From contig JBNRSN020000003.1 in the NCBI GenBank assembly GCA_051313645.2, positions 433,318,001 to 433,382,000 on the forward strand: a DNA stretch of 64,000 bases, given 5' to 3'. The notes below the pieces were generated by a model that was given only the letters and a program-made list of their open reading frames with translations, was not told where the DNA came from and ran no database searches. How positions within the stretch are numbered: the stretch's first letter is position 1; each line of letters begins with the position of its first letter. Below are positions 10,628-46,652 of this stretch, one piece after another. The translations under genes were made by a program, and so were the position numbers. This stretch comes from Centroscyllium fabricii. Lineage: Eukaryota.

Positions 10628-13600
10628 ATGGCTACCGGTGCTGCGGCCTTAACACTCCCTTCTTTTTGGGAGAAACAAGCGACTGCATGGTTTGCTCATG
10701 CAGAAGCCCAGTTCTCCCTGCGGAAAGCTGAGGACGATGAAGAAAAATACCTCCATGTTGTGTCGGCCCTCGAGAGCTCCACCGCTGCGGAAGTCATCGG
10801 CCTTCTGGGGAACCCTCCAGAAGCCGGCAAGTATAAAGGCAGTTAAGGACAGACTCCTGCAGGTTTTCAGTTTATCCAAGGAGAAGAGAGCACGCAGGCT
10901 TCTCTCGCTACCAAGCCTTGGTGGCTCCACCCCGACCCAGTTAATGAGCCGAATGCTCACTCTTCTGGAGTCCGAGCCACAATGTTTCCTTTTCCATGCT
11001 TTATTCTTGGCCCAGCTTCCTCAACAAGATCAAACTGCCCTCGCCGGTTCCCCAATCACGGACTGAGTCAAGCTCGCAGCCGCGACAGACAAAATCCTCT
11101 CCGTGGCCTGGCTCGGCTGCGGAGCCACGAGGTTCCCCTCCCCCACGGAGCGCAACCTGACTTGTCAGGCTGTAGGCCTCTGTTATTATCACGTACGTTT
11201 TGGCGCGAAGGCCCACCGTTGCCGCCCGCCTGCACATTCGCCACCAAGAAAAAGGTTACCCTGCCCGACTCACCGAGTACTCACCACTGGCAGATTTTGT
11301 CTGAGCGTCCTCCTGCCGCCACGATGACTGTCGGTTCAGCAGGGAAGCTCCTCTACATCATCGATTCGCTTTCTGGACGGCGATTCCTCTGTGACACAGG
11401 CGCGCAGTGCAGTATTATCCCAGCTTCCACCCACTATAAACTGGTGGGTCGGAGTGGACCTCCCCTCGTGGCGGCTAATGGCGCTGCCATCCGCACTTAT
11501 GGAAAACGTCGAGCGGAAATCTGCTTCAGTGGACAGTGGTTTACCTGGGGCTTCATCACGGCCTCAGTCTCACAGCCCCTGCTTGGCGCAGATTTCCTGT
11601 GTGCCCACTGTCTTCTGGTCGACGTCCGTGACTGACGCCTCATCAACTCGGCCACATTTAATTGTTTGTTGTGCCAACGCAGCAACACACCGGCCCTCGT
11701 CCTGTCCTGCGCCTCGCCCGCACTGGATGACTACTCTCGTCTTCTGGCAGATTTTCCTGGATTCATGCTGTCAACTTTTTCGGCCACGTCGAATAAACAC
11801 GGCGTTGAACACCACATTGCCACCACAGGTCCCCTGGTGTATGCTCGCGCCCGGATCCAGCCAAGATGGCCGTGGCCAAGGCAGAGTTCGCGACAATGGA
11901 AAAATTGGGCATCGTTCGCCACTCGAATAGTCCCTGGTCTTCTCCTCTTCACATTGTCCCTAAGCCGGGCGGTGGCTGGCGACCCTGTGGCGATTACAGG
12001 AGGCTCAATGACGCTACCACACCTGATCGCTACCCCATACCGCATATCCAGGACTTCTCGCCACACCCGGCGGGAAAATTCATCTGCTCAAAAGTGGATC
12101 TGATTATCATCCATTACCCGTTCACCAGGCTGACATCCAGAAGACCACGGTCATCACCCCTTTTGGCCTTTTTGAATTCCTAAGAATGCCTTTCGGGCTG
12201 AAGAACGCTGCGCAGGCTTTCCAATGGCTTCTGGATTCGGTGCTTCGGGACCTCCCTTTTCTTTTCATCTACCTCGACGACATCCTCGTGGCCAGCACTG
12301 ACAAAGCACAGCACATCTCACAATTGCGTTCTCTCTTCCAGAGCCTGAGTCAGCACAGGTTCATCGTCAACCCCGCTAAATGTCAATTCGGACTGGCTCA
12401 GATCGATTTTCTCGGCCATCAGAGGATGGGGCAATTCCTCTCCCGGCCAAAGTACAGGCAGTATCGGATTTTCCTCAGCCCACTTCGGCCAAAGCTCTTC
12501 AAGAGTTCCTGGGTATGGTTAATTTTTATCATCGTTTTGTACCGAAGGCTGCTCTCCTCATGCGCCCTCTCTACGAAGCCACCAGGGGCAAGACGGGCAA
12601 ACATCCGCCATCATGGACGGAAGAGATGTCCTCAGCATTCGACAAAACCAAACGGGTGTTGGCCAATGCCACGCTTTTGGCACACCCTATTCCAGGCGCC
12701 ACGGTCGCCCTCACAACTGACATCTCCGACTACACCATTGGAGTGGTGCAGCAGCAGTGGGTCGATGGTGATTGGCAACCACTAGCGTTCTTCAGTCGCC
12801 AACTGCGCAAGAACGAGCGGGCATATAGCACATTTGACAGAGAGCTACTCGCCTTGTTTTTGGCAGTCACCAGATTCTTGCTAGAAGCTCGACCTTTCAC
12901 AGCATTCGTTGATTATAAACCGCTAACTTTCGCCATAGCAAAAACTGCAGAACCTTGGTCTGTGCGCCAGCAGAATTTCATCTCTGAATTTGCCATCGAC
13001 ATCCGCCACGTGACCGGTAAGGAAAACATGGTGGCAGATTGCCTCTCACGACCCTCTCTTCACAGCGTGCACCTGGGCGTGGATTATGCCAGTATGGCAA
13101 AGGACCAGGCATCTGATGCCGACCTCCAGTCCCAAGATCGGCGGTTACTGGCCTCAGCCTAGCCGACATTCATTTCCAGGCAGCTGGTAGAACTCTTCTT
13201 TGTGACGTGTCGGTTAAATATCCTCGGCCTGTAGTTACATTCTCCTGGCGTAGGTGAGTTTTTGATATCATCCATGGGCTTTCTCATCCAGGTATGCGGG
13301 CATCCCAGAAGCTAATGGCAGTGAAGTTCGTGTGGCCCGGTCTACACAAGGATGAGAGAGACTGGACGAACACATGCGTGGTTTGCCAGAGGGCGAAAGT
13401 CCATCAACATACCAAAGCGGCACTGGAATTCTTCCCCGTGCCAGAGAGAAGGTTTGACCACATTCATGTAGACCTGGTTGGCCCACTACCGCCATCGCAA
13501 GGCTACATGCACCTACTCAGTATAGTCGACCGCAACACAAGGTGGCTGGAGGTAGTCCCTCTAACCTCCACCACCGCGGCCGACGTAGCCAGGGCGTTTG

Positions 13601-14510
13601 TATCATCGTGGGTGGCCAGATTCGGAGTTCCTGCCGACATTTAGTCAGACAGAGGTCCTCAGTTTACTTCTCAGCTGTGGAATGCCATCGCTCATGGGCT
13701 AGGAGCAAAACTCCATAGAACCACAGCCTACCATCCACAGGCGAATGGCCTTTCTGAACGTTTTCACAGATCGTTGAAGACCTCCTTGCGGGCCTGCCTG
13801 TTAGATTCCTGCTGGAGAGACAAGTTGCCCTGGGTTCTACTGGGACATCGTACTGCACCCAAAGAAGACCGCAACTCTTCTTCGGCCGAAATGGTTTGTG
13901 GGCAACCGCTCCGAGTTCCGGGTGAATTTCTTCCCCTCGTCAGGGAGCCGTGGCCCGCTTCAATACAACGATCAATACACCAAGAGGCGACCAAGTGTTT
14001 TCGGCCGGTGTCCACGTTCCAGCATGGCCCTCAGCTCTCACACATTCCAAAAGACCTACACCAGGCGGAATTCGTTTTCGAGCGCTGGGACGCGCACAAA
14101 GATCCTCTTCAGGCCCCTTACACGGGGCCCTTCCATGTCTTAAGAGGCGGGAGACAAATCTTTTATTCTGGACGTCGGCGGAAAGCCGGACTACGTCTCG
14201 GTGGATTGTCTTAAGCCGGCTCACCTAGAGCTCAGTGCTCCGGTCCATACGGCTCTTCCTCCACATCACGGCAGACCTCCTGCAACACCCCTGTCATCAG
14301 CCAGTCCGCTTGCCTGCCAATAATAATAATAATCTTCGTTTTCGTCATCGTCACCCGCAGACCATCCTGCCAGTCTGTCGTCAGACCAGCCGCTGGACTC
14401 GCCTGTTCTTCAACCTGCCAGCCTCCCAGACACTCCTCCTCGTCCACCGTCCGAGTACTACAGCCGCTACGGCCGTTTGATCAAGCCACCTGAACGATTG
14501 ACTTTTTCAG
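10628..14510 (+). pseudogene. gag-pol pseudogene of the Gypsy element (multiple frameshifts and stops)
   Basis: Gag: LPSFW..AWF..AEAQF and CYYH-x9-C. Protease: LCDTGA. RT: WRPCGDYRRLN, MPFGLKNAAQ, YLDD. RNase H: LAFFSR, YSTFDRELLA, VADCLSR. Integrase: H..H..CVVC, HVDLVGP, SDRG, ERFHR, GPF. Confidence 0.95.
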
Positions 14511-14538
14511 TTAAAGAGGATTCTGGGGGGGGGGCACA

Positions 14539-14780
14539 TGTGTCATTTCCACATCGGGGAATAAATGACTGCACATAATAATTGTATGTAAAATACCCTT
14601 TAACTTACAGGTTTCCCCATCCCTTTAAGAGAGAGGGAAAACAGACCCATTGTGACCAAGTGTGACATCATCGTGCATTCCGCAGGCTTTTTCAGTTTAG
14701 AATGTTTTTGGAGTTTGAACTATAAAGATCAGTTGTTGTGTAGTTGCTCCTCCGAATTGGCTGATTTATTTGTTGGGACA
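14539..14780 (+). repeat. 3' LTR (242 bp, with small deletions relative to the 5' LTR)
   Basis: Aligns with 10323-10581 with roughly 14 substitutions by hand count, 5-bp and 13-bp deletions and a 1-bp insertion. Confidence 0.93.
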
Positions 14781-14896
14781 ATACCTCCCTTGAAAACTAC
14801 CTATGCCACAAACAGGATTTCTCTAAAGTGCAGCTGCATCCAGCTCAGGAGTGGGTAGAGGATTCTGTTGGTGAGTAAACAATTAAAATGTAGTTT

Positions 14897-14925
14897 AAAT
14901 AAATAAAATTGAGCAGCCATTTAAT
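14897..14925 (-). terminator. Candidate poly(A) site for the GAMTYI isoform (ATTAAA plus U-rich downstream element)
   Basis: Plus-strand TTTAAT at 14920-14925 reads ATTAAA on the minus strand, about 420 nt after the stop. It is followed by TTTTATTTATTT on the minus strand. Confidence 0.4.
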
Positions 14926-15345
14926 AATAGTAAAATCTGCATACAAATCAGAACATAATGAACTTAACTGTTTTGAGCATTAGATTTTGTGAAGTTATTA
15001 TTTAAATGTTCGACTGTATCATGAAGCGATTTTGGTTTTCAAAGAAAAACAAGCATTTTGTGTGTGGTCATGGGCAATGGACGCTAAGTTTCACAAAAAA
15101 CTAGCCCCAGTATTGGCAGAGATATCAGTATGTGCCAAATGCAATCTCACTGATAACAGATAACAATTAGCACTCTTGTTCTCCCTCCCCGCTGCCCAAT
15201 AACGTAAAAATGTTTGTTTATAGAGTGCACAATAATGAAGTCACACGACCACACTGTGTATTGCACTTTGCTGCATTCTCTTATCTGTGTGTAACACAGA
15301 ACGTGGTCCTGTCTGCCAAAACTTTCACCTCGAGTTTTCTTAAAA

Positions 15346-15524
15346 CTAGATGTAAGTCATTGCACCTTTGGCATTTCTGTCCAAATAGACTTCCACATAG
15401 GATGTTGGAACGTATCCTTCCTCATCCTCGTTCCGTCGGACTCTCGTCCAACCGTCTCCTTTATCTTCCTCTATCACGTTCAGTGTTTCTCCTTCTGCCA
15501 TTGCTATTGTTCCTTCATTCTGAC
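15346..15524 (-). CDS. FNBP1: FNBP1 SH3 exon ending ...[22 protein letters not shown]
   Basis: SH3 motifs [11 protein letters not shown] and GYVPTSYV. Acceptor ttcag|, TAG stop at 15346-15348. An internal donor AAAG|GTGCAA would end the exon at 15366. Confidence 0.96.
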
Positions 15525-15803
15525 CTGAATTGAAACAAGGTTCACAAATCAGGTAAAACCAAATCAGATGACAAGAATAGACAGCTTTAGGAAAAAATTC
15601 CATTCTGCTTTTTTTTTCATCCTTTCACATGCAACCTCTCAATCTGCAATGTGGGTCCACATTTGGGGCAGGAGTGCAGTTTTCTGGAGAACCTGTAGAT
15701 CAGTTGCTTTTGCCCATTTGGGAGCCTTGTGCACTGTTGTTGCTTTTTTTCTTAAGTGATCCTTGAATTGTCCCAATTAAAACAGGAGACTTGAAAAGAC
15801 TTA

Positions 15804-16439
15804 GGGGGAAAAATTCAGTATCACCCCATTTGGGGCGCCATTCTTGGCCGTGCGCAAAGTTTAGCGCCTGGTGCTAATTATCGCCTCAGAATGCAAAATT
15901 GGCTTTTATCGCCCCTGGAGGTGATTGGAGCGCTAAATCAGGCGCATCACACCTTAAGGCGCAAAGGCCGAGGAGCGAGGCGCTACCTCAGAGCGCTGGC
16001 GAAGCAAGGAAGGGCCAATCAAAATGAACCTGCAAAGTGCTGCTCAGTACCCAAAACTCCTTCACACAGCGTTGCATCTCTCCAGAAGTCTCTCTCTCTC
16101 TATCTCTGAATGTATGGTGCAAAAATGTCACCAACAAAAATGTCAGGAAGCAGTCACCTTTAACTAGCGCTCCCCCAGTCCCTTTCAGACTGCTAAACGC
16201 TCCCCTCAACCTGTTGTTGTTAGCGGCAGGCGGCGACACTCAATATCCGGTCCGGGGCGCTGCGCACTCGACTGACGTCATGCTCTGGAAGCGCAGCAGA
16301 TCGTGGTGGTAGTGTTTAGCGCCGCCGCAAAATGTCTAGTTAATTTCGTGAGCGGCATGAACATCGCCACGCCCGGGCGCTAGTTGCTTTGCACCCCATT
16401 AGTGCCCTCTTAAGGCGCAAACAACTGAATTTTTCCCCC
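15804..16439. mobile_element. PIF/Harbinger-like MITE
   Basis: Perfect 16-bp TIR GGGGGAAAAATTCAGT / ACTGAATTTTTCCCCC, 3-bp TSD TTA, GC-rich non-coding interior. Confidence 0.88.
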
Positions 16440-17245
16440 TTAGTCTGGATTCCTCCATAAAATGTACCATTTCTTGGTTGAAGCTATAGCCATCTCAGCT
16501 TCTCCCAACCCCGTAACTATTTGCTAGAAGGAACAAAACTGCCTACTGGTTGACTCTTCTGGTGATGTGACCTCTGGTCAGTGACCACCAATGTTGCCTC
16601 TATTTTCTTCCCCTGGCGCAGGCCCTTTAAATTTGCTGTGCGGCTGCACATTCTCTTCCAACGGCAGCAGCTGGTGGGCGGCCTGCGTGGAACCTCGTGA
16701 TTGATGCTCAACTGCACACCTTCGGGAGAACATTGGTGATCACCACCACAAACCCAGAGTTGTAGAAGCAAACCTGGATCCTTTGCACAGTGGCACACTG
16801 CTATGCTTTCAAATCCTTTCTTCCTTGCTGTCAAACACCATCAGTAAGCAATCATACTGGAAACATCTGTTATTTCCTCTCTGCCTCTAAAAAGCACAAC
16901 GCTAATGCAGTGTTCACCCTCTCCCTTTCTCTAGATTATCACGCACTTTACCACCACACCTAGCAAAAAGAAAACCATCTCAGAGTTTAGCTATGTGGGA
17001 ATGATCCAGTGGGAGATGAAAGGGAGTGACTATTAGATTTGTTCCACATATGGGGCAGCACCTCATCTCCATTTGAGCTCTAGCCTGAACAGCGTGTATG
17101 AGGTAAGTGAATTTACTGCGTAGAAAATTGCAGGAGCAATTTTGCAGCAAGCACATTTTGTTGGATCTCCAGGATTGAAAAAAATGTCCAAGGGGTTTCT
17201 AAGCCGTAGTTTGGCTGCCTTATTTTCTCTGCAGTATATATATAC

Positions 17246-17385
17246 CTTCGAAAGGATACATGGCTTTGCATGTGCCAATTGTTGCCAGTGTTTCTTCATC
17301 ATCAAACTCATCGTCAAATTCACTTTGTGCTGCAACTTTTAACTGAGGGTCCTGGTTCTGTTCTTCGGTGTAACTACCATCAGGG
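17246..17385 (-). CDS. FNBP1: FNBP1 exon, 140 nt (PDGSYTEEQ...[26 protein letters not shown]), acidic linker and SH3 start
   Basis: Lies within ORF 17220..17441. Acceptor gagcag| (a tandem NAGNAG), donor |gtatat, phase 2/1. Confidence 0.96.
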
Positions 17386-18172
17386 CTGCTCAAGAAAGAA
17401 ATACACACAGTAACTATAGAACAGCATAACCGAAAATACACAGCAGCAAATCCACAGGCAACTGCTGCATAAGGCTAAGTAGAGATAGTGCAGTCAAGCA
17501 ATTCAATGCCACATTAACAGGATACTGGATTCCTCATACCATGACCACAAATATTTTTCTGTAGCACAGCAATTAACGGACAAATGAAATACGTAATTAA
17601 AATCACAGTGAATCATTTAATTTAAATAGAAAAATTACAGCAAGTAATCTAGGGCAGGCACAACATGCCACAACAAACCCAACAAGTTTTGACACGAGTC
17701 ATCTATACTGCAACTGCTGCAATATTGCATTAAAAATATCGGAGGCCGTGAGTGAGTGATTATGCTACACCTTGAAAAACAGCTCTTATTACAAGCAGCA
17801 AAAATTAAATTCACAAGAACACATGGGGTCCATGCACATAGATCATTAGAATGCCATGGACAGGTACAGATAATAATCAAAATGGCTAATGGAATGCTGG
17901 CCTTTATATCCAGAGGACAAGAATACAAGGGGGTAGAAGTTATGCTGCAGCCATGCAAAGCCCTGGTTCGACCACACCTGGAGCACTGTGAGCAGTTCTG
18001 GGCACCGCACCTCAGGAAGGATACATTGGCCTTGGAGAGAGTGCAGCGTACATTTACCAGAATGATACCTGGACTCCAAGGGTTCAGTTACGAGGAGAGA
18101 TGACACAAACTTGGGTTGTATTCCCTGGAATTTAGAAGGCTAAGGGGTGATTTGATCGAAGTTTTCAAGATA

Positions 18173-19057
18173 CAGGTTGTGCACCGAAAATCCGCGACCC
18201 GAAACGCCGGCAGCTTCAGTCTGCCGGAACAAATTGCCCCGACTGCACTGCGCAAGATGGCAGCCGCGATCGCGGCTTCAGCGAATGATCTGCGCATGCG
18301 CTGCCGAACGGCGAGCGCATGCGCAGATCATTCGCCAAAGCCTCTATCGCAACGGCTATTTTGCGCATGCGCATGGCAGCCGGGGCGAGCAGACAGACAG
18401 GAGAGGACAAGCGAGAGAGAGCAGCAGAGCCCACTCCAGCCTTTGATCCCAGCACACTCACACTCACCGTCCCGATGGTTTCAGGAGACGTCGGCACCAT
18501 GGAAGGCAGGGGGCTCGGGAGGCCGAGAGTTCCGGTGCCTCGGAGTTGCTGGGAGACGAGGAGGAGAAGGAGGAGGCCTTCTCCAACCTGTAGGATGAGG
18601 AGCAGATGCTCCACATCGGTGTTTACCACGCGCCCTCAACCGCGCTTGAAACGGGGACAGGTCCCGCCTGGCTGGCCTTGATTGGGTGGTGGCAGGAGGT
18701 TTGCGATTGGTGGAAAGGCCTGTCAATCCCGTGGCTGGGGGGGGGGGGGGGGGGGGGGGGAGAGAGAGGAGGCTTGTGATTGGTGAAGCAGCCTGTCAAT
18801 CCTGCAGCTAGGGCGATAGGAGGTTTTTGATTGGTGTCAGTCCCGTGGCTGGGGGGGAATAGGAGGCTTACGATTGGTGAAGCAGCCTGTCCATCCTGTG
18901 GCAAGGAGAGGGAGGCGATTTTGCGATTGCAATGTTATGCGCATGCGCGTGGCCATTTTGAATGGTGCGCGCATTGGCCAGCTTCATTCTTCCGTTTTTT
19001 TCGCAAAACCGGCGTGGGCCTGGTCCCGCCCGTGCCGGTATAACGATGCACAACCTG
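18173..19057. mobile_element. Tc1/mariner-pogo (Tigger-like) MITE, 885 bp
   Basis: TIR CAGGTTGTGCA(C/T)CG at both ends, TA TSD (18171-18172 and 19058-19059), clean insertion into CR1. Confidence 0.9.
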
Positions 19058-33808: not shown

Positions 33809-34278
33809 TGGTGAATCTGCGTTGTACCCCCTCCTGAGGTGCAGTGTCCAAAACTGAATACAGTACTCCAAATAGGGTTTTGAATGAGGTTCTGTACAAT
33901 TGAAGCATCATGTCTTCACTTTCGCATTCTAAACTCCTCAAGATAAAAGGCCAACATTCTATTCGCCTTTCTGCTTGCTTTTTATACCTGTGCACTGTCT
34001 CTCCCCATTTGTCTTTCTCGGATCACCTCACGCTTCCCCACATTGAACTCCATCTGCCATAGTTTTGCCCACTCACTCGGTTTCTGTCCGTTTGCAACTT
34101 CCTGCTTCCATTTACACAACTTGCTGTGCCTCCCAACAGTGTCATCTCACTAATCCTTCATCCAAATCATCAATATAAATGGTGAAAAGCGGAGACCCCG
34201 GCACAGATCCCTGGGGAATACCACTTGTCACACACATCCTGCCAATCAGTGAACATTCCCTTTAACCCTACTATCTGT

Positions 34279-34569
34279 TCCTGGGACTAGGGACAGGGTC
34301 ACTGGCAAGGCTTGGAAGCTAAGCAGAGCCAGGCCTGGTTAGTACTTGGATGGGTGACCACCAGGGAATACCAGGTGCAGAAGGTCACGAAAGGAGCCCC
34401 GGGGAGGGGCGGTTGGCTGAAGATTGTCGGAAAGATGGAAGATGGAATGGCAGCGCACACAGACGCAGCGGCTTTGCTGGACTCTTGGGAGCTTGCAAGA
34501 TCACATTTCGTTGTTCACGTACTTGTACATTGGATAATGACAATAAAAGTTGAATTATTATTATTATTA
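34279..34569 (+). mobile_element. Composite 5S-derived SINE-like element with Rex1-type tail
   Basis: Order is a 32-nt leader, the 5S 3' two-thirds, a unique body, then the tail tttcgttg...gtacttgtac...aatgacaataaaagttgaa(TTA)n. 6-bp TSD ATCTGT at 34273-34278 and 34570-34575. Confidence 0.75.
34311..34384 (+). pseudogene. 5S rRNA-derived segment (about nt 44-117, the internal control region)
   Basis: cttggaagctaagcagagccaggcctggttagtacttggatgggtgaccaccagggaataccaggtgcagaagg has about 10 mismatches in 74 nt against vertebrate 5S as I recall it. The 5' third and the oligo-T terminator are absent. Confidence 0.92.
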
Positions 34570-35028
34570 ATCTGTCTCCTACCTCCCAACCAATTATCAA
34601 TGCATGTCACAAGGTGAAATCCTATTCAGTGAACTTTCATTTTTGAAAATCTCTTGTGCCTTCTGAAAGTCCACATGGAAAACATCCACAGACACTCTCT
34701 TATCCACCGTGTCAGTGACTTGCTCAAAAAATTAAATTAGTCAGATGTGACCTAGCCTTCACAAATCCATGCCAACTCTTAGGAGGAATGTAACAGCACC
34801 ACAGCTGAATCATTTGTTTGGACAGAAGCTCAGACAATAATCTGCATGAAATTGGGGGTGGGGCAAGAGTTTCTTGTTTGCTGGCTATAACAATGCTGTA
34901 TGAAATAAGATTGGGCAATCTCAAAACAATTCAGCAACAACTGGTTGTCCAATTAGATGCAACAAGGATGGCTGGTATTAGAAATGGAAATGTCATATTG
35001 GTACAGTAGAGGTGGATTAACTGTGGTT

Positions 35029-36461: not shown

Positions 36462-38557
36462 CTGTCCAAGCCATAATCACACACGTCAGCACCTCAAGTG
36501 GATTTATACTTTTGGTCACACTTTTGTCTGGATGCCAAATTTAAATAGAGTAATTTAAAAATAATAATAACCCTTTCCAGTTTTGCTACCCCAGAGCTAA
36601 AATAATTTAGCCTGGTGACCAATATATAGGCCATTAGTCTACTTTAATAATCTGTTACTTAAACTCAGATAGACATTCATTCAGAATATTTTAGATTTGA
36701 CTTGGCGTTGACGTCCTGTTTCCTACATATTTCAATGCTCATTAGTAAAGGTTTAAAAAATTGCTCCTGAAACAATCCTGCATGTGTGTGGACACACACA
36801 ATAACCCAAAATGGCCCTTAAATGGCTGATACTTCACAAAGTACCTGTATAAACATCAGCTGCCACACAGAGTGGAGTCAGTGGACAATGCATAAACAAT
36901 TGAGTTGAAATTCCTTGGGAGTTTTGGCTCTCTCACTCTCTGGCAGAACCCCATGGAAAACACTGGAGATCCAGCCGTGGTTCCTGATGGGGCACATGCT
37001 GTAAACTATCCAAATTTTCAACACTGGACAATATACATCATTACAAAGGCTGCACCAGAGAAATGCAAGTGGTCAAAACTTCAGCTGCCCATGCCCACCA
37101 AAAGGAATTTGTCTCCACAGTTGGGGGGAAAGTCAAAGAATCCAAAGCAGATGAAGTGACTACTTTGAGATTAACATAATGAGAAAACCGAGTGTGGTTT
37201 CTTTACTCCCTATTCTTAAGGAAGGTGCATTTTCAAAATCTCTCTTCCTACCCTAAAGATACTTTTCGACTACCTAGACAGAAAAGGATTAAATTAACAA
37301 GTAATGCTGACAAATGGCATTCTTTTTATGAATAACATTTTGTAGTACAGATCGAGTGACAATAATTCCAACAACAGTATTGGCTGATTGATTAGTCTTT
37401 ACTCGATCACGCAAAAATGTTAATCGATTTTATGCACTCTAAGCCATTAACAAGGAAAATTAATCTGTATATTTCCCTTACTGATGCATGCACTTATGCA
37501 AAATTAAATTTATCCCTTTATAACTTTTCAGCAATGCACATCCTTTGAATTAAGTAACCGTCAGTTCTGTTTTTCCTTGAACCTTGCAGCACACAAATAT
37601 GTTCTTTCACACTGCAAGAAATAATATTCCACAAAATAATCCAGATTCAGTTGACAAGAATATGAATGATTTGAACAATAGATGTTTTCTAATCTTGCTC
37701 AGAGAGCAAGTGGCTCAGCCTCGATGCATCCTTTGCAGGCTGTGGAGTGCAGTGATAAGAGGATACAAGGAATTTCACATCTTTTGCTGCAGATATCATT
37801 CCACGTAATGACCATAAGGAGCGACCCTCAGCAAGCAATTCAGAGGAGAATGCAGACTTCTCAGAAATCTGGCTCCATCATTTGTCAGCTTTTAATGCTC
37901 CCATTCCAAGGAACTTAAAGCCCTGGAGCAGTTCAGAGGTTGCTTGCTCCTGGGTCAGGTGTCTAAAGTTGGGTTTGAGAGAAATGCGAAGGAGGAAAAT
38001 ATAAGTCAACTACACAAAAATACTCTGCGAATAAGACAGTACTTTCAGAAAAATGCCCATTGTGCTGGTGTGGAGAATTCTAATAATGCTGCCATTTTCA
38101 AGCAAAGGCATTTTTGTTTCCAGATTCACTTTACTGTTAGCATCTCCAATACAGGATTTATGAAAACCCATCTCACAAAGTTGAAATCCATCAGGAATTT
38201 GGACACAGCTGACCGAATTTAATAGAGATCGATAAAGGTTGATAATCTTTCACTCCAATTAAATTGTAGGATGCTGAACTTTCATGTGTACCTCTGGGTA
38301 GCTTGAAAAGGGCTGTAATGAAGGTGTAAGGAGTTAATTAGCAGACCAGAAGAAACAAGTAAAAGCATGACTAGAATCCTGGTCAATGAGCCCAAAGTCA
38401 TCTTGGCAGATGAAGGTCCATGTGCACCACACAAATTCTCACACACAAAAGTTATTAATGGTTTGGACACTGGCAAATTGTATTCATATTTGTAGTGTAT
38501 ATATCAGTGCATTTAAAAGGTTTTTATTCAAATGAATCCTGAAGTCAACATGCAATT

Positions 38558-38793
38558 TGCACCCGCACGACTAGATTTCAGAACAGCTTCTTCCCCAGGG
38601 CTGTCAGCCTCCTGAACTCTCAAAAGAAACTCCGGTACCTGCACGCCTGATAATGAACTTTACTGTATGCAATTTGCATGTAATTTATTTATTTTGTTTG
38701 CACTACTCTCGGGAGAGTCGAGTCTTCGTCTCGTTGTATTGTACTAGTACTCTGCAATGACAATAAAACTTGAATTGAATTGAATTGAATTGA
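38558..38793 (+). mobile_element. Rex1/Babar LINE 3' end
   Basis: Encodes RTTRFQNSFFPRAVSLLN, the Rex1 ORF C-terminal motif. Tail is tctcgttg..gtactagtac..aatgacaataaaac(TTGAA)n. Confidence 0.85.
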
Positions 38794-40230
38794 AAATTGT
38801 CCAATTTTAATTTTGATTAATGCTAAATTGAAAAATCCACCCACATTGTACTGCATTCTTTTATCCAAAACATTTTTGGTTTGCATTTCAGTTCCATGAA
38901 TAGGAGAAGCTATTGAAACAGTCACTTCAGTAACTCTGAAGCCACTGTCAACAATTATTAGAAAGATATGGTTGGACATGCTGCAGTGGCTTCTCAGACA
39001 TATAAGACTGCAGTCTCTTGTGCGAACAGAGGTGCATCTAACAAGAAAGTGAGCAAACTCATACCAATTTCCCCATCATCTTTAAGTGACCTTTATTACA
39101 CTAAAGAAGCTAATTCACCCATAGCAGTCTGCAGAAACACTCAATAATTTAAATCAGTTTCACATTAGTGTGTGGAGTGTACAACCAAAGTGTACAAACT
39201 TGTTTTTACCCTGTAAGTAGCTTTTGACTGGAGGTTGCTGTGGGTGCCATGAGGGAGCAACTTTTCAATTCAGCGGGTTAAATATTTTGAACTAATTCAA
39301 TTCTGTAATATCTCAAATATGTGCTGTACTATATAAATTCTATATACTGCACTTTACATTCCCACTTCAATACACAACATAGTCCATCACAGTAGAACAT
39401 TGTGGTTAATGTAATTTACAATGAGGATTAGTGGAAATCAGTGCACTCACACTGCAACACATCAGAATGTCTGTTTTACCAAATTCTTCATTTCTATAAA
39501 ATTATTGCAGTGCATTCCACCATGATTCTCATAACTTCTATGATGTCTTTGCAGTGTCGCATTCATATATGTGGCTGGTAAAGCACTCGGGCAGGATCTT
39601 TCACAACTTCCATATCTTGGCCAGTTTATTAAGAGATAGATGTTAAATGGAGGCCAGGCATTTCCTCTCAGCCATGGCAGAAAATCAAAACAGTAAATCA
39701 CCTCTGGCCATTAGTACATACAGTCCAACAGTTATAGAAAGCTCACTTGTCTGCCCACTTGGCTTGCTACATGGTATGGAATGGGGGAAAGAGAGCCCCA
39801 AAAGATAGTGGGCAGGAATAGTATAAAAAGGTGTTGTATTCAGGTAAACACAACTGTCCAAAGTATTTGTAAAGCAGGTGTTTGAAATCCACTGCTTTGA
39901 GTCAATGTAATAATTTAAGGCGGAAGCACCTTTGTACTGGTATTAAAATTATTCCAGAGCTCAAGTATTTACACGTTAATTCATTTAGTGCCAAAGGTTT
40001 AGCTTCACAGTAAATTCCAAAAGATATACCATTATTTACTAATATTGTGTGTCGGAAATGTCCTTCAGTTTTGTCCTATTCTTGAATTCTCTGCTGGAAT
40101 TCATCTTTAGCAATTAATGGCAAGTCAGCTATGCAGCAATTTGTGTGAAAGGAAAGGACTACACATTTTTAAAGCTGTAAATTATTTCAGTGCTCACAGG
40201 ATTATTTAAATAGAGTAAGGGAGGTACAAT

Positions 40231-45648: not shown

Positions 45649-46652
45649 AGGCGCGAAATTGGTGAGCGCATTATTTGGGGCGCTAAAATGGGCGCAGCGC
45701 TAAAATTAGCGCTAGAGCGCCCGATATTGGGTTTTGCGCCGGCCTTGCAGATTTTAGCGTTAAATTTAGCGTTGCACGGGTGCAAACACCCAATTTTGTG
45801 GCGCTAATTACCAATCACGGGCGCAGCGCTCCTTCAGCAACTCCTTGCTTTCCCATGAACTCTGGAGCCGGACAGGTCTTAAAGGGGGTCGGGGAAGCAG
45901 TGCATTGTGTGTCAACACCCCTTCCTCATCATCTCCCCAATCTCGGGCCGCCCGACCCCCCTCAGCATCTGCCCGATCTCGGGCCGCCCGACCCCCCTCA
46001 GCATCTGCCCGATCTCGGGCTGACCCCCCTCCCGCAGCATCTGTCCGATTTCGGGCTGACCCCCCTCCCGCAGCATCTGTCCGATCTCGGGCTGACCCCC
46101 CTCCCGCAGCATCTGGCCGATCTCGGGCTGACCCCCCTCCCGCAGCATCTGGCTGATCTCGGGCTGACCCCACTCCCGCAGCATCTGGCCGATCTCGGGC
46201 TGACCCCCCTCCCGCAGCAACTGGCCGATCTCGGGCTGACCCCCCTCCCGCAGCATCTGGCCGATCTCGGGCTGACCCCCCTCCCGCAGCATCTGGCCGA
46301 TCTCGGGCTGACCCCCCTCCCGCAGCATCTGGCCGATCTCGGGCTGACCCCCCTCCCGCAGCATCTGGCCGATCTCAGGCCGAAGAGGCTACTGAGGAAA
46401 GGGAGGGTCGCCCTTTTAGCAGCGCAGCAGCGGCCACTCAGACCCTCAGCAGCGCTTGCCAAAGCTGGCGTTGGCAACGCTGCGCCGGGGGGACTGGCGC
46501 AAAGGCGAATTTTAGGGTGCAGCCCAGCGGGCGGGCGTTGCACCCGGATATGCACGACGATTGCCGATCACAAATTAGCGCGCGCTAACATTAACATTTA
46601 GCACCATTTTTCGGCGCTAAACGGACGGCGCGAAGGCGCGAATTTCACGCCC
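45649..46652. mobile_element. Harbinger-like MITE containing a minisatellite
   Basis: Imperfect TIR AGGCGCGAAATT / AATTTCACGCCC, flanks ACA and ATA, and GCGCTAA-rich arms like those of 15804-16439. Confidence 0.75.
45912..46379. repeat. 36-bp minisatellite, 13 copies (CTGACCCCCCTCCCGCAGCATCTGGCCGATCTCGGG)
   Basis: Head-to-tail units with no spacers. It appears as a 12-aa periodicity in the overlapping ORFs on both strands. Confidence 0.95.

What the first reader, a model, noticed from the sequence alone, without database searches (positions are those of the whole stretch)
34279..34569. 5S-promoter SINE with a Rex1/Babar tail, with a likely partner LINE end in the same window
Seen: a 291-bp insertion bounded by ATCTGT duplications splits a CR1. 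It consists of a non-5S 32-nt leader, the 5S internal control region (box A, IE, box C; 34311-34384) with no terminator, a roughly 115-nt unique body, and a tail TTTCGTTG..GTACTTGTAC..AATGACAATAAAAGTTGAA(TTA)n. That tail closely matches the Rex1 3' end at about 38728-38793 (TCTCGTTG..GTACTAGTAC..AATGACAATAAAACTTGAA(TTGAA)n). Known: SINEs share 3' tails with the LINE that mobilises them, and the 5S-derived SINEs I know use CR1, L2 or RTE tails. Inference: this is a 5S/Rex1 SINE, a combination I do not recall being described, and it has kept only the TFIIIA-bound promoter part of 5S.
Basis: partly seen in the sequence, partly recalled or inferred. Interest (0 to 1): 0.8.

Follow-up and report, generated by a model that had tools for sequence, protein, structure and literature searches.

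The report
5S SINE built on two-ended Rex1
This is a young, abundant jumping element that joins a 5S ribosomal RNA promoter to the first and last pieces of a Rex1 retrotransposon, a two-ended design that the papers I could read describe only for other retrotransposon groups.

Summary
The element is real: a young SINE family with at least 18,485 exact tail matches in this 7.2-Gb genome. Its parts are a hairpin leader, 5S nt 44-117 (promoter only), about 60 nt of unknown origin, a LINE-derived part and (TTA)n. The "unique body" is mostly not unique: 34447-34477 is the extreme 5' end of a Rex1-type LINE (28/31 nt), fused straight onto the Rex1 3' end. The genome also holds a free-standing, ORF-less Rex1 derivative (5' end + tandem repeats + 3' end; at least 11,928 tail matches) whose first 31 nt match the SINE almost exactly. 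So this is a 5S head on a bipartite Rex1, analogous to Ped-1 and CoeSINE5 (5S + bipartite RTE). Kojima 2018 lists such bipartite LINEs only for RTE, Ingi, Vingi and R2. The 5S-plus-Rex-tail pairing itself probably has precedent in salmon OS-SINE1/RSg-1 (clade recalled). Corrections: the tail is only 68-79% like the LINE, TSDs occur in 13 of 58 copies, and the LINE end in the same window is chance. Transcription and mobilisation are inferred. Repbase and Dfam could not be checked.

The parts
34273..34278 (+). left target-site duplication; its last 4 nt also match the element's own 5' end (microhomology)
34275..34310 (+). leader, not 5S-like, folds into a 12-bp hairpin; this copy lacks the first 3-4 nt of the full-length start
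   Evidence: fold z -3.7 against mononucleotide shuffles
34311..34384 (+). 5S rRNA nt 44-117: internal control region, no terminator
   Evidence: 68/74 identical to the genome's own 5S gene; Rfam RF00001 E 1e-5
34385..34446 (+). purine-rich spacer of unknown origin, ending in imperfect repeats of the Rex1 first bases
   Evidence: no match outside SINE copies in the loci held; repeats read from the sequence
34447..34477 (+). Rex1 extreme 5' end
   Evidence: consensus 28/31 to autonomous LINE L102, E 1.4e-7, 0 of 300 shuffles reach the score; 27-30/31 to 17 unselected copies of the ORF-less bipartite family
34473..34554 (+). Rex1 3' end with terminal stem-loop; joined to the 5' part at a 5-nt sequence shared by both LINE ends
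   Evidence: 70-79% to 19 LINE tails; 48-56 of 71 nt to three sets of tails
34555..34569 (+). (TTA)5 tail
   Evidence: median 6 repeats in 58 copies
34570..34575 (+). right target-site duplication
34000..34790 (-). decayed CR1-type RT fragment split by the insertion (limits approximate)
   Evidence: translation runs on across the site; clade by recalled motifs
38552..38794 (+). 5'-truncated 3' end of the autonomous Rex1-type LINE, (TTGAA)5 tail
   Evidence: 97% to the end of the 3.1-kb element L102

Best explanation
A SINE3 family made by fusing a 5S promoter to a bipartite (5' end + 3' end) Rex1 derivative. Shown: the modular anatomy, copy number, youth, the Rex1-type LINE with one APE-RT ORF, and a free-standing ORF-less bipartite Rex1 family that shares the SINE's diagnostic 5' bases. 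Inferred: Pol III starts about 45 nt upstream of box A under the 5S type 1 internal promoter and reads through the T-run-free element. The Rex1 protein binds the 3' stem-loop and copies the RNA by target-primed reverse transcription, priming on the (TTA)n tail and leaving short or no TSDs. Inferred origin: internal deletion of a Rex1 or of its bipartite derivative at a 5-nt sequence common to both ends, then capture of the 5S head by template switching.
For: Copies 88-99% identical to the window copy, mean 2.3% substitutions from consensus in 30 exact-seed copies. 5' ends cluster 45-46 nt before box A against 49 in 5S. The LINE is also young (93-99%) and abundant. It is 3.1 kb, starts sharply at CAA[A/G]ATGG in 30 loci, and encodes APE, RT and PF09004 with no ORF1; Rex1 lacks ORF1; its N-terminus agrees by eye with a published Rex1 consensus. 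SINE 34447-34477 equals the LINE's first bases. 16 of 20 hits to a LINE-start pattern are not SINEs, and 12 of them have a Rex tail within 1 kb. In 30 unselected tails of that family, 17 have the Rex 5' end 430-1,220 nt upstream and 0 have RT coding sequence. Its tails vary (TTGAA, TCTTA, TTGTA) after the same TTGAA, so a TTA tail is tolerated. TSD rates match: 13 of 58 SINEs, 5 of 24 bipartite copies. The terminal stem-loop is predicted in both SINE and LINE tails.
Against: No LINE with the SINE's exact tail was found: of 31 hits with a changed upstream context, the 30 read were SINE copies or truncated pieces. The tail is only 68-79% like any Rex set and is about equidistant from the autonomous and bipartite families, so the direct donor is unknown. 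A free-standing element with the SINE's exact short junction was not found (1 hit, a truncated SINE). All four long LINE copies read have a frameshift; no intact copy was sought. Tail fold energies alone are not significant (z -1.35 and -0.37). There are no expression data. The Rex1 label rests on domain layout and a by-eye match, not on a tree.
Confidence: 0.8

Rival explanations
1. Same anatomy, but the mobilising partner and donor is another Rex1 family not sampled here.
For: Tail identity is only 68-79% although both families are young. L215 joins the bipartite-type 5' end to an RT piece 66% identical to L102. The PF09004 search scored 150 of 78,250 candidates, and the 30 read were all one lineage.
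Against: No LINE carrying the SINE tail among the 30 of 31 hits read. The sampled family has 78,007 tail matches and is of similar age.
Confidence: 0.2
2. A Pol II-driven non-autonomous LINE: the Rex1 5' segment or flanking promoters drive transcription and the 5S piece is a passenger.
For: The Rex1 start resembles a YY1-type initiator motif (recalled). Type 1 promoters depend on upstream signals. Three of 20 hits are headless copies that begin at the Rex segment.
Against: Most copies keep the head: junction to tail counts are 12,897 to 18,485. 5' ends cluster at a fixed distance from box A. An internal Pol II start could not copy the sequence upstream of it. There are no T4 runs.
Confidence: 0.07
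3. One reading: 5S head, unique body, Rex tail; the 31-nt match is coincidence.
For: The segment is short and GC-rich.
Against: It lands on the LINE's first bases out of 3.1 kb; score 50 against a shuffle maximum of 28; 27-30/31 identity in unselected bipartite copies; it abuts the 3' part directly.
Confidence: 0.02
4. One-off chimeric retrocopy or 5S pseudogene.
For: None remaining.
Against: More than 12,000 exact junction matches on many contigs; same layout in the 60 copies read, apart from truncations; no match of the body to 10 5S rDNA loci.
Confidence: 0.01

Closest known systems
Ped-1, CoeSINE5, SINE-1_Pmo, HaSE3 (5S head + bipartite RTE; PMC5786205 section 7 part 1 and passages, PMC3747384 table)
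   Same: 5S-derived head followed by the 5' and 3' parts of one LINE
   Different: The LINE here is Rex1-type, not RTE; the 5' part is the extreme first 31 nt; only 5S nt 44-117 are kept behind a foreign hairpin leader
OS-SINE1 of salmonids (5S head, Deu domain, RSg-1 tail; passages in PMC3747384, PMC3272025, PMC5135761)
   Same: 5S promoter in a fish SINE with a tail from RSg-1, which I recall as Rex1/Babar (not confirmed by any search)
   Different: OS-SINE1 is a DeuSINE; here about 60 nt separate head and LINE part, and the LINE 5' end is included. Sequences could not be compared
SINE2-5_NV / Rex1-24_NV (PMC3747384 table)
   Same: SINE paired with a Rex1 3' end
   Different: tRNA head, sea anemone; no LINE 5' part reported in that table
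Bipartite ORF-less LINEs such as RTE-N2_Lch, RTESINE1/2, WALLSI3 (PMC5786205)
   Same: Analogue of the free-standing family found here: LINE 5' end + 3' end, no ORF
   Different: Rex1-type ends; the middle is 0.4-1.2 kb of GC-rich tandem repeats (25-nt unit in L209) that do not match the sampled autonomous family
Chondrichthyan SINEs HE1, SacSINE1, CmiSINEs (PMC3747384 table, PMC5499810 passages)
   Same: Probably the same host group (inferred, not verified)
   Different: tRNA heads with CR1 or L2 tails

Membership tests
SINE (SINEBase definition, PMC3531059) | short (<1 kb), interspersed | tested here: met
   about 290 bp; hits on many contigs
SINE (SINEBase definition, PMC3531059) | at least 100 copies | tested here: met
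   12,897 and 18,485 exact matches
SINE3 | at least 60% identity to 5S rRNA over at least 60 nt | tested here: met
   68/74
SINE3 | transcribed by Pol III from the internal promoter | not testable with these tools
   5' end spacing and absence of T4 runs fit; no expression data obtained
SINE3 | not a 5S pseudogene: extra body and shared diagnostic changes | tested here: met
   shared body and six shared changes against host 5S
Rex1/Babar (partner LINE) | single ORF with APE and RT, no ORF1 | tested here: met
   criterion from PMC13343379. The APE hit (E 1.3e-4) is below Pfam's cut-off
Rex1/Babar (partner LINE) | conserved 3' UTR followed by an oligonucleotide repeat, not poly-A | tested here: met
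   (TTGAA)n in 30 loci; criteria from PMC6274825 and PMC13343379
Rex1/Babar (partner LINE) | RT falls in the Rex1 clade | tested here: inconclusive
   No labelled references for a tree. Best homologues are unnamed fish RT+PF09004 proteins; N-terminus agrees by eye with NotCoa_Rex1-11
SINE with bipartite LINE-derived region (Kojima 2018) | contains both the 5' and the 3' part of one LINE | tested here: met
SINE with bipartite LINE-derived region (Kojima 2018) | donor clade is RTE or Vingi | tested here: not met
   donor is the Rex1-type LINE above
OS-SINE1 / DeuSINE | Deu central domain | not testable with these tools
   no Deu consensus available; only about 60 nt are unassigned, so a full domain is unlikely (inference)

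The most novel reading that the evidence does not exclude
Rex1 is a fifth LINE clade that throws off ORF-less bipartite derivatives, and this is the first SINE built on one. Three stages sit in one genome: autonomous LINE, bipartite derivative and 5S-headed SINE. The retention of the LINE's first 31 nt deep inside a Pol III transcript would mean that the Rex1 protein recognises both ends of its RNA, or that ORF1-less LINEs share such a need.
Probability: 0.5. Interest if true: 0.7.

Novelty: new variant of a known kind. Interest (0 to 1): 0.55.

Why it matters
Kojima 2018 left open whether bipartite LINEs are confined to RTE, Ingi, Vingi and R2 through sampling bias or through biology. An abundant Rex1 case extends the list to the CR1 group and points to a shared trait, the lack of ORF1 (RTE's lack of it is recalled). 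A 31-nt segment in a young family is small enough to delete in a retrotransposition assay, which tests directly why SINEs keep LINE 5' ends. The family is also a source of young insertion markers for its host group.

Tried and rejected
Rfam at gathering score over the window: 0 hits; bipartite element L209 at E up to 1: 0 hits. Body and leader against ten 5S rDNA loci: no match, so not spacer-derived. Leader as diverged 5S nt 1-43: rejected. A LINE with the SINE's exact tail: not found. A headless element with the autonomous 5' variant and the SINE junction: 1 hit, a truncated SINE. Co-location in the window as evidence: rejected by density. Other 5S-headed families: all 7 non-rDNA 5S-like hits outside the searched copies were this family. 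Sequencing runs: 16 of 24 rows share at least 46% of the words, under several coded organism labels; none was laid, so this is no evidence of range or expression. Copy number from flanks: 9 copies in 668 kb extrapolate to about 97,000, but flanks may be enriched; treat as rough. Literature: searches found no 5S SINE with Rex1 ends, no bipartite Rex1 and no clade for RSg-1. Three relevant papers were not held. The SINEBase supplement was unreadable, and the cells of the PMC13343379 supplement were cut at about 400 letters, so Rex1 3' ends could not be seen. Earlier scan findings: none.

Full report
Observation. The insert at 34279-34569 is there, between two ATCTGT copies, inside a decayed minus-strand RT whose translation continues across the site. 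Its 34311-34384 part is 68/74 identical to nt 44-117 of the genome's own 5S gene and stops before the T-run terminator. The consensus has no T4 run.

It is a family. A 27-nt pattern across the 5S/body junction has 12,897 exact matches and a 29-nt tail pattern has 18,485, with reversed controls at 0. The best 40 of 1,000 candidates are 97-100% identical to the window copy. The first 30 junction hits on contig C1, not chosen by score, average 94% to it and 2.3% substitutions from their consensus; the exact seed biases this low. Of 58 copies with a readable tail, 29 start at CCCTG, preceded by G in 21 and by AG in 15. The full start is thus 45-46 nt upstream of box A, against 49 in 5S. The window copy lacks the first 3-4 nt, and four of its six 'TSD' bases also match the element. 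TSDs of at least 5 nt occur in 13 of 58 copies (shuffled pairs: mean 1.7, maximum 6.2), often overlapping the tail or the 5' end. The 40-nt leader is no closer to 5S nt 1-43 than its shuffles and folds into a strong hairpin; its origin is unknown.

The LINE. 38552-38794 is the end of a 3.1-kb element with endonuclease, RT and PF09004 domains. In 30 loci it starts at CAA[A/G]ATGG, with unrelated sequence further upstream, and the ORF begins at once, so there is no ORF1. PMC13343379 (passages) says Rex1 and Zenon lack ORF1 and Zenon has poly-A; this LINE ends in (TTGAA)n. The start of the published consensus NotCoa_Rex1-11 (supplement row) translates by eye to the same N-terminal motifs as L102. 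I therefore call it Rex1-type, without a tree. Its tail pattern has 78,007 matches, one per 92 kb, so its presence in the window means nothing. The SINE's last 80 nt are 70-79% identical to 19 LINE tails, the similarity begins sharply at 34473, and both share a predicted terminal stem-loop. No LINE with the SINE's exact tail was found in 30 of 31 hits read.

The SINE stretch at 34447-34477 aligns to the first bases of the LINE at 28/31 (E 1.4e-7; score 50, shuffle maximum 28 in 300). It runs straight into the 3'-derived part through a 5-nt sequence present at both LINE ends. A pattern for a LINE-type start with the SINE's variant bases gave 20 hits. Four were SINE copies. Sixteen belong to another family: Rex 5' end, a GC-rich tandem-repeat middle and, in 12, a Rex 3' end within 1 kb. 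Its tail pattern has 11,928 matches. In the first 30 such loci, 17 have the Rex 5' end 430-1,220 nt upstream (an 18th flag, L223, was dropped as unrelated sequence) and none has RT coding sequence by tblastn. Those unselected 5' ends match the SINE at 27-30 of 31 in 17 cases (two further values of 14 and 19 were chance anchors) and share the variant bases that distinguish the SINE from the autonomous family. The 71-nt SINE tail matches 52-56 positions in this family, 48-51 in the young autonomous copies and 49-54 in 18 older ones, so the exact donor is unresolved. The TSD rate of the bipartite family, 5 of 24 (null mean 1.2), is like the SINE's.

Mechanism. Shown: anatomy, abundance, youth and sequence sharing with both LINE ends. 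From established knowledge of SINE3 and stringent LINEs, and inferred here: Pol III transcription from the type 1 internal promoter, recognition of the 3' stem-loop by the Rex1 protein, and target-primed reverse transcription primed on the tail repeat. The bipartite family uses three tail repeats after the same TTGAA, which makes the SINE's TTA plausible for the same enzyme. In L036 a SINE sits inside the LINE's own tail with a 9-nt TSD; this is one case. Whether the 31-nt segment does anything is open. I put 0.8 on the overall account. Expression could not be tested.

Comparison with what is known. The pairing of 5S and a Rex tail is probably not new: OS-SINE1 has a 5S promoter and an RSg-1 tail (PMC3747384 table, PMC3272025, PMC5135761 and PMC10946416 passages), and I recall RSg-1 as Rex1/Babar, which no call confirmed. 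A tRNA SINE paired with Rex1 is in the same table. PMC7245038 (passages) states that vertebrate SINE3s use CR1. PMC5786205 (passages, section 23 and part 1 of section 7) lists 5S heads on bipartite RTE (CoeSINE5, SINE-1_Pmo, HaSE3, Ped-1), and says that ORF-less bipartite LINEs are known only from RTE, Ingi, Vingi and R2 and that only RTE and Vingi contribute to SINE middles; the word Rex does not occur in it. PMC5499810, PMC4824008, PMC3531059 and PMC6274825 were seen as passages only and name no such element. Ten library searches found no bipartite Rex1. Repbase, Dfam, the SINEBase table and the primary OS-SINE1 papers could not be read and may hold it.

Verdict. A true SINE3 that works like Ped-1 or CoeSINE5 but is not a member of those families, because the donor is Rex1-type. 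New variant of a known kind, interest 0.55.

Noticed in passing
L198-L215, L216-L245: Free-standing ORF-less bipartite Rex1 family, 0.4-1.2 kb, with a GC-rich tandem-repeat middle and three tail types; at least 11,928 tail matches. It deserves its own description.
   Followed up: partly
L101-L104 and 23 loci: The Rex1 ORF has a C-rich tract inside the RT region whose length varies over all three frames; all four long copies read are frameshifted there. Slippage or sequencing error.
   Followed up: partly
L165-L194, position about 1500: The LINE starts with a CAA[A/G]ATGGCGGC motif that resembles a YY1 site (recalled) and holds the start codon; two published Rex1 consensus rows begin similarly.
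   Followed up: no
L036:1730-2010: A SINE copy inserted into the (TTGAA)n tail of the Rex1 LINE with a 9-nt TSD.
   Followed up: partly
L215 / L246: Bipartite-type 5' end followed by an RT fragment 66% identical to L102: possibly a second Rex1 family or a nested insertion.
   Followed up: partly
L099:1343-1600: SINE copy with an inverted piece of its tail at the 5' side.
   Followed up: no
L161: Internally deleted SINE with the 5S part joined directly to the Rex 3' part.
   Followed up: no
G000 C742 and C822: 5S rDNA arrays with a unit of about 2.5 kb whose spacer holds a short match to the window's 33829-33871; L066 has a different spacer.
   Followed up: no
window 45915-46383: Tandem array with a period of about 36 or 72 nt (self-match offsets 108-324).
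   Followed up: no
L104:1-2979: Long open LTR-retrotransposon-type pol frame (993 aa) upstream of a Rex1 copy; observed only.
   Followed up: no
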